DNA of 64,000 nt from Escherichia coli. Lineage in GTDB: Bacteria; Pseudomonadota; Gammaproteobacteria; Enterobacterales; Enterobacteriaceae. This document shows, one piece after another, positions 21,165-24,100 of this stretch; within the stretch, counting starts at the first letter, position 1, and every line of letters begins with the position of its first letter. Made by a program: the position numbers. Location: assembly GCF_017348835.2 (NCBI RefSeq), contig NZ_CP071375.1, one strand, 5' to 3'.

Positions 21165-24100
21165 TAAAGGCAGTACATTAAAACAAGGAGCGGCAATGTA
21201 TTACGGGTTTGATATTGGTGGAACAAAAATTGCGCTTGGCGTGTTTGATAGCGGTCGGCAGTTGCAGTGGGAAAAGCGGGTGCCGACACCGCGTGACAGC
21301 TATGACGCATTTATAGATGCAGTGTGTGAGCTGGTAGCTGAAGCTGACCAACGTTTTGGCTGTAAAGGTTCTGTCGGCATCGGTATTCCGGGAATGCCGG
21401 AAACAGAAGATGGTACGCTGTATGCCGCCAATGTCCCCGCTGCCAGCGGTAAACCGCTGCGTGCCGACCTGAGCGCACGTCTTGATCGCGATGTACGCCT
21501 TGATAACGATGCCAACTGTTTTGCCCTTTCAGAAGCCTGGGATGATGAATTTACTCAATATCCACTGGTGATGGGGTTGATTCTCGGCACCGGCGTTGGC
21601 GGCGGGCTGATTTTCAACGGCAAACCGATTACCGGTAAAAGCTACATTACCGGCGAGTTTGGCCATATGCGTCTGCCGGTTGATGCGTTAACCATGATGG
21701 GGTTGGATTTCCCGTTACGCCGCTGCGGCTGTGGTCAGCATGGCTGCATTGAAAATTATCTGTCTGGTCGCGGTTTTGCGTGGCTGTATCAACACTATTA
21801 TCATCAACCGTTGCAGGCTCCCGAAATTATTGCGCTTTATGATCAAGGCGATGAGCAGGCAAGGGCGCACGTTGAGCGTTATCTGGATTTATTAGCGGTT
21901 TGTCTGGGAAATATCCTGACCATTGTTGACCCTGACCTGGTCGTCATTGGTGGTGGCTTATCGAATTTCCCGGCAATCACAACGCAACTGGCGGACAGGC
22001 TGCCTCGTCATCTCTTACCTGTAGCTCGTGTTCCGCGCATTGAACGCGCGCGCCACGGTGATGCGGGAGGAATGCGTGGTGCAGCCTTCCTACATCTAAC
22101 CGATTAAACAACAGAGGTTGCTATGCTGTCGCGTCGGGGTCATCGGTTAAGTCGTTTTCGTAAAAATAAACGCCGCCTGCGCGAGCGTTTGCGTCAGCGT
22201 ATTTTTTTCAGAGATAAAGTGGTGCCGGAAGCAATGGAAAAACCAAGAGTACTCGTACTGACAGGGGCAGGAATTTCTGCGGAATCAGGTATTCGTACCT
22301 TTCGCGCCGCAGATGGCCTGTGGGAAGAACATCGGGTTGAAGATGTGGCAACGCCGGAAGGTTTCGATCGCGATCCTGAACTGGTGCAAGCGTTTTATAA
22401 CGCCCGTCGTCGACAGCTGCAGCAGCCAGAAATTCAGCCTAACGCCGCGCATCTTGCGCTGGCTAAACTGCAAGATGCTCTCGGCGATCGCTTTTTGCTG
22501 GTGACGCAGAATATAGACAACCTGCATGAACGCGCAGGTAATACCAATGTCATTCATATGCATGGGGAACTGCTGAAAGTTCGTTGTTCACAAAGTGGTC
22601 AGGTTCTCGACTGGACCGGAGACGTTACCCCAGAAGATAAATGCCATTGCTGCCAGTTCCCGGCACCCTTGCGCCCGCACGTAGTGTGGTTTGGCGAAAT
22701 GCCACTCGGCATGGATGAAATTTATATGGCGTTGTCGATGGCCGATATTTTCATTGCCATTGGTACTTCGGGGCATGTTTATCCGGCGGCTGGGTTTGTT
22801 CACGAAGCGAAACTGCATGGCGCGCACACCGTGGAGCTGAATCTTGAACCAAGTCAGGTCGGTAATGAATTTGCCGAGAAATATTACGGCCCGGCAAGCC
22901 AGGTGGTGCCAGAATTTGTTGAAAAGTTGCTGAAGGGATTATAAAGCAGGAAGCATTGCCTGATGCGCTACGCTTATCAGGCCTACAAGCGGACCACAAT
23001 ACCAACGAAAGAGCGGGATAAAACTTTACTGTCCTGACTCATTAGCCACATCCTTGCTAACTAAAAAACGGGCGGTAATACCACCGCCCGCTTGCTGAAT
23101 TAACGTCCTGCTTTCAGCTTCTGATAATACTCTTCATAAATGCTGCTGGCTGCGCCAACGTCATTCTGCCATTCGCCATTTTTAATGGTTTCAGCATCCG
23201 GGTAGAGCGTCTTATCGTTCGCCACTTCTGGACTTAACAGCTTACGCGCCGCAAGGTTTGGCGTTGGATAACCGATAGTTTCAGCAACCTGTTTTGCCAC
23301 ATCCGGGCGCAGCAGGAAGTTGATCAATTTCAGCGCGCCTTCTTTGTTTTTGGCATTTGCCGGGATCGCCAGGCTGTCCATCCAGAATATGCCGCCTTCT
23401 TTCGGCCACACCACGTCAATAGGCGTACCCGCCTGGCGTGCAACGAAAGCAGAACCGTTCCAGATCATGCCGAGGTTAACTTCGCCTTCCATGTACGGGT
23501 TAGCCGGGTTATCGGAGTTAAACGCTGCGACGTTTGGCATCAGTTTTTTCAGCTCGTTATATGCAGCTTCAATCTCTTTCGGATCGGTGGTGTTACCGGA
23601 GTAGCCCAGCTTACGTAGCGCCATCTGGAACACTTCACGGGCATCGTCGGTCAGCAGCAGGCTGCCTTTGTACTCAGGCTTCCACAAATCGGCCCAGCTG
23701 GTGACAGATTTCGGATCCACCGCATCACCGTTAACGCCAATCGCCGTCGCACCCCAGATATACGGAATGGAGTAATCGTTATTCGGGTCAAACGGCTTAT
23801 TGAGCATGTCTGGATCGAGATTGCTGAAGTTCGTTAACTTCGACTTGTCGATCTTCTGGATCATCCCTTCTTTACGCATTTTATCGACGTAATAGGTTGA
23901 AGGAACCACCAGGTCATAGGCACCGTCTTTGTACGTTTTCAGCTTGGCATACATGGTTTCGTTCGACTCGTAAGTCGAATAGATAACCTTAATACCGGTT
24001 TCTTTGGTGAACTGTTCAAGCAGTCCTGGCGGCACGTACTCGGTCCAGTTGTAGAAATACAGCGTGTTGTTGTCATCGGCGTGAGCGGCGCTCATGCCCA

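What the first reader, a model, noticed from the sequence alone, without database searches (positions are those of the whole stretch)
22945..23100. cobB abuts potD with only a REP element between them
From memory, K-12 carries ycfZ and ymfA between cobB and potD; here only about 155 bp with a REP element separates them, and CobB ends at …KLLKGL. This suggests a non-K-12 backbone or a deletion at this junction.
Basis: inference. Interest (0 to 1): 0.15.

Follow-up and report, generated by a model that had tools for sequence, protein, structure and literature searches.

The report
Old ycfZ–ymfA deletion scar, cobB–potD
This non-K-12 E. coli lacks two small, uncharacterised membrane-protein genes (ycfZ, ymfA) that K-12 has between cobB and potD, because of one old 1.3-kb deletion shared by about 10% of sequenced E. 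coli; it is an ordinary strain-to-strain gene-content difference.

Summary
cobB (22123–22944, +) and potD (23100–24146, −) converge across a 155-bp spacer. The spacer holds one canonical REP (22958–22986), a 44-nt remnant of the ymfA 5′ end and the potD terminator.

K-12 and 4,850 of 5,426 complete E. coli genomes carry ycfZ–ymfA at this position. The other 576 have cobB next to potD. Of these, 552 share this window's exact junction (GGAC|CACA|ATACC), including O157:H7, O145, O121 and an HS-like strain.

The ymfA start codon and about 15 codons survive, so this is a deletion (net 1,287 bp) and not a primitive empty site. It has no flanking repeats and at most 3 bp of microhomology, which points to illegitimate recombination. 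It happened once and has since recombined onto many flanking haplotypes.

Outgroups add a twist. Salmonella, Citrobacter and Enterobacter have cobB directly beside potD, without the stub. So ycfZ–ymfA is an Escherichia-lineage acquisition that this lineage lost again. At least two other independent losses exist.

The CobB ending …KLLKGL* is the ancestral form. K-12's six extra residues are the derived state.

The window is identical to the porcine strains PE164 and F2_81. Verdict: real, correctly interpreted, ordinary, low interest.

The parts
22123..22944 (+). cobB (Sir2-family NAD+-dependent protein deacylase), 273-aa long isoform, intact. The stop TAA is at 22942-22944. The T at 22942 is absent in K-12, whose CobB therefore runs 6 codons further (KAGSIA) into the REP.
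   Evidence: ORF list. NCBIfam NF001755, 597.9 bits. Alignment of cobB 3' ends. All outgroups end ...LLKGL*.
22958..22986 (+). Single REP element (GCCTGATGCGCTACGCTTATCAGGCCTAC). It is the first REP of what is a two-REP BIME in strains that keep ycfZ-ymfA; the second REP was removed by the deletion.
   Evidence: Consensus scan: 2 copies in the window, 0 expected. Hairpin of -13.2 kcal/mol. Multi-copy in E. coli genomes. K-12 and L005 sequences show the second REP. There is only a sub-threshold Rfam hit, to the REP-derived naRNA4.
22995..22998 (.). Deletion junction. Left homology to intact strains ends at 22994 (…CAAG[C/G]GGAC) and right homology resumes at 22999 (ATACC…). The 4 nt CACA between them cannot be assigned to either side. 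At most a 3-nt GAC microhomology is present. Net 1,287 bp are missing relative to strain 08_4358: REP2, all of ycfZ, and ymfA codons from about 16 to 153.
   Evidence: BLAST breakpoints. Side-by-side sequences of 14 strains. Anchor-to-anchor interval of 173 bp against 1,460 bp.
22983..23042 (-). ymfA stub. The start codon is at 23042-23040. The ymfA-derived part is 23042-22999, and the frame then runs across the junction to a TAG in the REP, giving a 19-codon ORF MSQDSKVLSRSFVGIVVRL*. It belongs to the non-K-12 ymfA allele class (MSQDSKVLSR…). It is a pseudogene remnant.
   Evidence: Translation and comparison with intact YmfA of L001, L004 and L005. The stub is absent from all outgroup spacers.
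23043..23065 (-). Original potD-ymfA intergenic sequence, comprising the ymfA ribosome-binding region and the T-run of the potD terminator. It matches the same spacer in intact strains, apart from strain-level SNPs in some of them.
   Evidence: Alignment of the right-hand side across intact and deleted strains.
23066..23093 (-). potD (potABCD operon) intrinsic terminator: a 12-pair stem (7 G-C pairs), a 4-nt loop, then a T-run on the minus strand.
   Evidence: Terminator scan. Inverted repeat I1.
23100..24146 (-). potD, spermidine/putrescine ABC transporter periplasmic binding protein, intact (348 aa).
   Evidence: ORF list. Annotated as potD under the identical sequence in PE164.

Best explanation
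The 155-bp cobB|potD spacer is the scar of a single, old deletion of about 1.29 kb that removed the second REP of a BIME, all of ycfZ and all but the first ~15 codons of ymfA. The deletion arose by illegitimate (repeat-independent, at most 3-nt microhomology) recombination between a point about 8 nt past the first REP and codon ~16 of ymfA. It happened in an E. coli ancestor that carried the non-K-12 ymfA allele class. The allele then persisted and was moved among lineages by ordinary homologous recombination, so it now sits on different flanking haplotypes in O157:H7, O145, O121, HS-like and porcine strains. The neighbours cobB and potD, and the potD terminator, are untouched. The only functional consequence is loss of two non-essential inner-membrane proteins of unknown function (a TPM-domain protein and a DUF3592 protein). 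The structure, the single origin and the polarity are shown by the data. The molecular mechanism (slippage or illegitimate recombination) and the spread by recombination are inferred.
For: Breakpoints and the retained ymfA ATG with ~15 codons. The junction is the same, including the unassignable CACA and the stub-specific substitutions, in all 6 carriers examined from very different backgrounds. 552 of 5,426 genomes match a 65-nt probe centred on the junction, and 4,850 carry ycfZ-ymfA. The flanks of carriers are mosaic: D7's potD side matches intact O104:H4 and O121-WL1277, and LAM_HS's cobB side matches intact K-12, G3/10 and CX21. Polarity: E. albertii and a divergent Escherichia genome (E69) carry ycfZ or ymfA at this site, whereas the empty spacers of Salmonella, Citrobacter and Enterobacter contain no ymfA-like stub. 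There are no direct repeats at the breakpoints. cobB and potD are intact, and the terminator is intact.
Against: The flanking haplotypes differ to within about 10 nt of the junction on the left (LAM_HS against D7). This needs either very close recombination endpoints, conversion of REP sequence, or recurrent mutation. The 4-nt CACA and the 3 substitutions in the stub match no intact ymfA allele that I sampled, so the exact parental allele and exact breakpoints are not recovered. Nine of the 576 adjacency genomes were not classified by junction type. Phylogroups were not computed; lineage diversity rests on strain names, serotypes and genome sizes.
Confidence: 0.88

Rival explanations
1. Primitive empty site: this lineage never had ycfZ-ymfA, and K-12 and most E. 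coli acquired the pair by insertion into a cobB|potD spacer like this one.
For: Direct cobB|potD adjacency (40-116 bp) is the rule in Salmonella diarizonae, eight Citrobacter genomes, Enterobacter, Pseudescherichia and others, so adjacency is the ancestral enterobacterial state.
Against: The window retains the ymfA start codon, its upstream region and about 15 in-frame codons that match intact alleles, and no outgroup spacer has them. An insertion would have had to land precisely so as to complete a pre-existing 15-codon ORF. E. albertii and the divergent Escherichia E69 already carry the genes.
Confidence: 0.03
2. Recurrent, site-specific excision: ycfZ-ymfA behaves as an excisable cassette, and the same junction has arisen many times independently (for example by REP-associated RAYT activity near the REP).
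For: The identical junction is found on different flanking haplotypes, differing within about 10 nt of the scar. The left breakpoint lies about 8 nt from a REP. The spacer is a cargo hotspot in other genera.
Against: All carriers share the same idiosyncratic CACA and the same stub substitutions, which no sampled intact allele has. There are no terminal repeats, no recombinase and no att-like sequences. The right end lies inside a coding sequence. Two other losses (L003 type, E69) use quite different endpoints. E. coli's known recombination rate is enough to explain mosaic flanks.
Confidence: 0.05
3. Artefact: an assembly collapse at REP repeats, or a laboratory-engineered deletion.
For: REP/BIME repeats can confuse short-read assemblies.
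Against: The same junction occurs in 552 independently assembled complete genomes from many laboratories, hosts and countries. The right breakpoint is in unique coding sequence, not a repeat.
Confidence: 0.01

Closest known systems
K-islands: K-12-specific segments absent from O157:H7 in the EDL933 and Sakai genome comparisons (Perna et al. 2001; Hayashi et al. 2001; recalled from my own knowledge, not read here)
   Same: A short block of K-12 genes (b1121 ycfZ, b1122 ymfA) is missing from O157:H7 and relatives at an otherwise collinear backbone position. It is a small-scale gene presence/absence polymorphism.
   Different: Here the polarity is resolved: it is a secondary deletion with a pseudogene stub. 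The allele is not O157-specific; it occurs in 552 of 5,426 complete genomes across several serotypes and lineages. I did not find a paper that describes this particular junction.
REP/BIME intergenic repeats at convergent gene ends in E. coli
   Same: The spacer contains a canonical REP immediately after cobB, and intact strains have two inverted REPs (a BIME) there.
   Different: The deletion is not a REP-REP recombination. Only one breakpoint is near a REP (about 8 nt downstream), and the other is inside ymfA.
CobB long and short isoforms (Tucker & Escalante-Semerena 2010, Salmonella CobB-L 273 aa and CobB-S 236 aa; recalled from my own knowledge)
   Same: The window's CobB is 273 aa with the basic N-terminal extension, and it ends ...KLLKGL like Salmonella's.
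   Different: K-12's annotated 279-aa CobB carries a derived KAGSIA tail, created by loss of one T, with its stop codon inside the REP. The window does not.

Membership tests
REP (repetitive extragenic palindromic) element | Matches the consensus GCC[G/T]GATGCG…CTTATC[A/C]GGCCTAC | tested here: met
   22958-22986 matches exactly, and a second copy lies at 10038-10070, with 0 expected in 100 shuffles.
REP (repetitive extragenic palindromic) element | Imperfect palindrome able to form a stem-loop | tested here: met
   An 8+2 pair hairpin of -13.2 kcal/mol. The z-score is only -1.57, so folding alone is weak evidence.
REP (repetitive extragenic palindromic) element | Extragenic and present in many copies per genome | tested here: met
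   It lies between the cobB stop and the ymfA stub. The 651-bp probe containing it hit a median of 9 and up to 22 places per genome, and the extra places match only the REP part (H30).
Deletion allele (pseudogene remnant) as opposed to an ancestral empty site | Residual fragment of the lost gene at the junction | tested here: met
   The ymfA ATG and about 15 codons plus its upstream spacer are retained.
Deletion allele (pseudogene remnant) as opposed to an ancestral empty site | Sister or outgroup lineages within the genus carry the genes at the same site | tested here: met
   E. albertii has ycfZ next to cobB (L017), and E69 has ymfA (L097). E. fergusonii, E. marmotae and E. ruysiae were not among the returned loci.
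Deletion allele (pseudogene remnant) as opposed to an ancestral empty site | True empty sites in outgroups lack the remnant | tested here: met
   Eleven outgroup spacers were inspected and none has the stub.
Mobile or excisable cassette (genomic islet with site-specific recombination) | Flanking direct repeats or att sites and an associated recombinase | tested here: not met
   There are no repeats at the breakpoints beyond a 3-nt GAC. The cargo is only a TPM-domain protein and a DUF3592 protein.
Anti-phage defence system (for the lost ycfZ-ymfA pair) | Match to a known or candidate defence protein model | tested here: not met
   No PADLOC hits at E<=0.01 for either allele class.

The most novel reading that the evidence does not exclude
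The cobB|potD convergent spacer is a recurrent gain-and-loss hotspot in Enterobacteriaceae, and the Escherichia cargo ycfZ-ymfA is under unusual selection. ymfA exists as two allele classes only 74% identical in protein, while the flanking genes are at least 99% identical. The pair has also been destroyed at least three or four independent times: this scar, the L003-type scar, the ycfZ-only deletion in E69, and a frameshift in CX21. That pattern would fit a surface or envelope module engaged in an antagonistic interaction (with phage, colicin or host), where both diversification and loss can be favoured.
Probability: 0.2. Interest if true: 0.35.

Novelty: already known. Interest (0 to 1): 0.1.

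Why it matters
It matters little. The finding helps annotation: the spacer should carry a ymfA pseudogene stub. It helps strain typing: the junction is a clean, PCR-able marker shared by O157:H7, O145 and some O121, HS-like and porcine lineages. It also corrects a K-12-centric assumption, because the 273-aa CobB ending in KLLKGL is the ancestral form and K-12's tail is a read-through into a REP. The one mildly interesting lead is evolutionary: ycfZ-ymfA is an Escherichia-specific, fast-diverging and repeatedly lost membrane gene pair of unknown function.

Tried and rejected
1. I tested whether the short CobB C-terminus is a product of the deletion. It is not. It comes from a separate 1-nt indel 50 nt upstream of the junction. 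It is found with intact ycfZ-ymfA (08_4358, O104:H4, O121-WL1277, EC958), and the K-12-type 279-aa form is found with the scar (LAM_HS).

2. I tested for REP-REP recombination as the mechanism. It is rejected because the right breakpoint is inside ymfA.

3. I looked for an intact ymfA allele that matches the stub through the junction, in order to resolve the CACA. The best intact alleles (G3/10, O104:H4, CX21) still differ by 3 substitutions plus the 2-nt length difference, so this remains unresolved.

4. The Rfam scan of the spacer gave only a sub-threshold hit to naRNA4 (19 bits against a gathering score of 59.5).

5. PADLOC and NCBIfam scans of YcfZ and YmfA found nothing.

It was re-run successfully.

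7. The literature search for ycfZ/ymfA found only incidental mentions: gene lists, one CRISPRi hit, one mutation in phage-resistant mutants, and a pangenome remark on YmfA. No paper describes this junction.

Full report
**1. What is in the sequence**

cobB is the ORF 22123..22944 on the + strand. It encodes 273 aa ending …[11 protein letters not shown]. It scores 597.9 bits against the NCBIfam CobB equivalog NF001755, whose cutoff is 318.

potD is 23100..24146 on the − strand and encodes 348 aa.

The spacer contains three features:

- **A REP.** GCCTGATGCGCTACGCTTATCAGGCCTAC lies at 22958–22986. It fits the canonical REP consensus, and a second copy lies at 10038–10070, with none expected in shuffles. 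It forms an imperfect hairpin. The same 33 nt recur at a median of nine places per E. coli genome.
- **A ymfA remnant.** This is described in section 2.
- **The potD intrinsic terminator.** It lies on the minus strand, with its stem at 23093–23066 followed by a T-run.

An Rfam scan found nothing above threshold. The only hit was a weak match to the REP-derived naRNA4.

**2. Comparison with K-12 and other E. coli**

The window aligns with K-12 and with strain 08_4358 (L005) up to 22994. Alignment resumes at 22999 with L005 and at 23020 with K-12, whose ymfA belongs to a different allele class. The anchor-to-anchor interval is 173 bp here and 1,460 bp in L005, a net loss of 1,287 bp.

The missing segment comprises the second REP, all of ycfZ, and ymfA from about codon 16 onward.

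The ymfA start codon survives at 23042–23040 on the minus strand, with about 15 codons and the native potD–ymfA spacer upstream of it. The frame then crosses the junction and stops in the REP, giving MSQDSKVLSRSFVGIVVRL*. Intact non-K-12 YmfA begins MSQDSKVLSRAFLGIGL….

Four nucleotides (CACA, 22995–22998) cannot be assigned to either side. The only shared sequence at the two breakpoints is GAC, and there are no direct repeats.

I therefore infer illegitimate, microhomology-level recombination. The data do not fit REP–REP recombination or site-specific excision.

**3. How common the scar is, and whether it arose once**

| State in 5,426 complete E. coli genomes | Genomes |
|---|---|
| Carry ycfZ–ymfA | 4,850 |
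| cobB directly next to potD | 576 |
| – match a 65-nt probe centred on this junction | 552 |
| – have a different junction (L003 type) | 15 |
| – not classified | 9 |

The L003-type junction keeps both REPs and the last codons of ycfZ, joined near the ymfA ATG.

Carriers of the window-type junction include many O157:H7 strains, O145 RM9872, an O121, an O78, an O9:H10, dog, horse, pig and chicken isolates, and a 4.64-Mb "LAM_HS" laboratory stock. I take the last to be strain HS; that is inference.

In the six carriers I read base by base, the junction is the same, including CACA and the stub-specific substitutions that no sampled intact allele has. This argues for one event.

The flanks, in contrast, are mosaic:

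- D7's potD side equals that of intact O104:H4 and O121-WL1277.
- LAM_HS's cobB side equals that of intact K-12, G3/10 and CX21.
- Two O121 genomes differ in whether the genes are present.

The simplest reading is an old deletion allele that has been shuffled by homologous recombination. That step is inferred, and no phylogeny was computed.

**4. Polarity from outgroups**

One degenerate-DNA scan of species-representative genomes, anchored on a CobB peptide, returned 120 loci.

- **Direct adjacency.** cobB and potD are separated by only 40–116 bp in Salmonella enterica subsp. diarizonae, eight Citrobacter genomes, several Enterobacter, Pseudescherichia and others. None of their spacers contains the ymfA stub.
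- **ycfZ or ymfA present.** The genes lie between cobB and potD in E. coli, in E. albertii (ycfZ; the locus ends before ymfA), in the divergent "E. coli" E69 (ymfA only), and as 52–58% identical homologues in Phytobacter massiliensis.
- **Unrelated cargo.** Other species carry different genes at the same spot: a 409-aa EAL-like ORF in Enterobacter chuandaensis and an Enterobacter MAG, a 5-kb insert in strain RIT691, and a dehydrogenase-like ORF in one MAG.

So adjacency is primitive for the family. ycfZ–ymfA was gained in the Escherichia lineage, and the window shows a secondary loss that mimics the primitive state but is betrayed by the stub.

**5. The CobB end**

…KLLKGL* is the C-terminus in every close outgroup examined, including Salmonella, Citrobacter, Enterobacter, E. 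albertii and Phytobacter. A few more distant loci differ.

K-12's 279-aa form lacks one T (TTA‑T‑AAAGC here, TTAAAAGC in K-12). It therefore reads six more codons (KAGSIA) to a TGA inside the REP.

All four combinations of this indel and the deletion exist. The two polymorphisms are therefore independent, and the short end is the ancestral state.

**6. What was lost**

YcfZ is a 262-aa TPM-domain membrane protein, and YmfA is a 153-aa DUF3592 protein. Neither matches PADLOC or NCBIfam models.

The literature offers only incidental mentions:

- strain-variable membrane proteins in a comparison of amoeba-grazing susceptibility (PMC10304320);
- a pangenome remark on YmfA (PMC8788219);
- a CRISPRi hit for ycfZ in a placental-barrier model (PMC12940985);
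- one ycfZ mutation among phage-resistant APEC mutants (PMC12057083).

The consequence of the deletion is therefore the loss of two non-essential proteins of unknown function. cobB, potD and the potD terminator are intact.

**7. Verdict**

This is an ordinary gene-content polymorphism of a kind known since the first comparisons of K-12 with O157:H7, and it is visible in hundreds of annotated public genomes. I rate it "already known", with low interest.

The one lead with some novelty concerns the evolutionary behaviour of ycfZ–ymfA. ymfA has two allele classes that are 74% identical in protein, while the flanking genes are at least 99% identical. The pair has been inactivated independently at least three or four times. 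The spacer also hosts different cargo in other genera.

Noticed in passing
window 24960 onward (integrase 25971-27089, minus strand); potC 24143-24937: K-12 homology ends at 24959, 22 nt beyond the potC start codon and inside the 3' end of potB. A lambdoid-type prophage follows (Arm-type integrase and excisionase in related genomes) and runs at least to the end of the window, and the rest of potB is not in the window. potB is a documented prophage integration locus in O157:H7 and O145:H28 (PMC9997748, PMC7067040). The same occupancy is seen in PE164, O157 ATCC 43889, both O121 genomes, 08_4358 and Z0117EC0005.
   Followed up: partly
L001 3062-3523, L005 2583-3044, L013 3786-4247, L011 3574-4035 (ymfA in intact strains): ymfA is dimorphic within E. 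coli. The K-12/EC958 class and the 08_4358/G3-10 class are only 77-78% identical in DNA and 73-75% in protein, while cobB, potD and potC are 97-99% identical in DNA and at least 99% in protein. ycfZ has its own, differently distributed divergence: EC958 is 91% identical in DNA to K-12. The pair is therefore mosaic and unusually fast-evolving.
   Followed up: partly
L003 3286-3397; L097 (E. coli E69, CP089930.1); L004 1790-2577: There are other independent lesions of the same gene pair. A second deletion type occurs in 15 genomes and joins the ycfZ 3' end to the ymfA ATG. A clean ycfZ-only deletion occurs in the divergent Escherichia genome E69. ycfZ is annotated as frameshifted in strain CX21.
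   Followed up: partly
L059, L103, L124, L075, L060 (cobB|potD spacer in other Enterobacteriaceae): The convergent cobB|potD spacer is a cargo hotspot. Phytobacter massiliensis has 52-58% identical ycfZ/ymfA homologues there. Enterobacter chuandaensis and an Enterobacter MAG have a 409-aa ORF with an EAL-like N-terminus; this is judged from the sequence only and was not scanned. Strain RIT691 has a 5-kb multi-gene insert, and one MAG has a 463-aa dehydrogenase-like ORF.
   Followed up: partly
window 22939-22947 compared with L001 2137-2157: K-12's annotated 279-aa CobB is the derived form. Loss of one T removes the ancestral TAA, so translation continues for six codons (KAGSIA) to a TGA inside the REP. 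Salmonella, Citrobacter, Enterobacter, E. albertii and this window all end at ...KLLKGL*.
   Followed up: yes
window 1-24900: The backbone part of the window is 100.0% identical to the porcine E. coli strains PE164 (diarrhoea and blood, Nanjing) and F2_81. The next-best genomes are at about 99%.
   Followed up: yes
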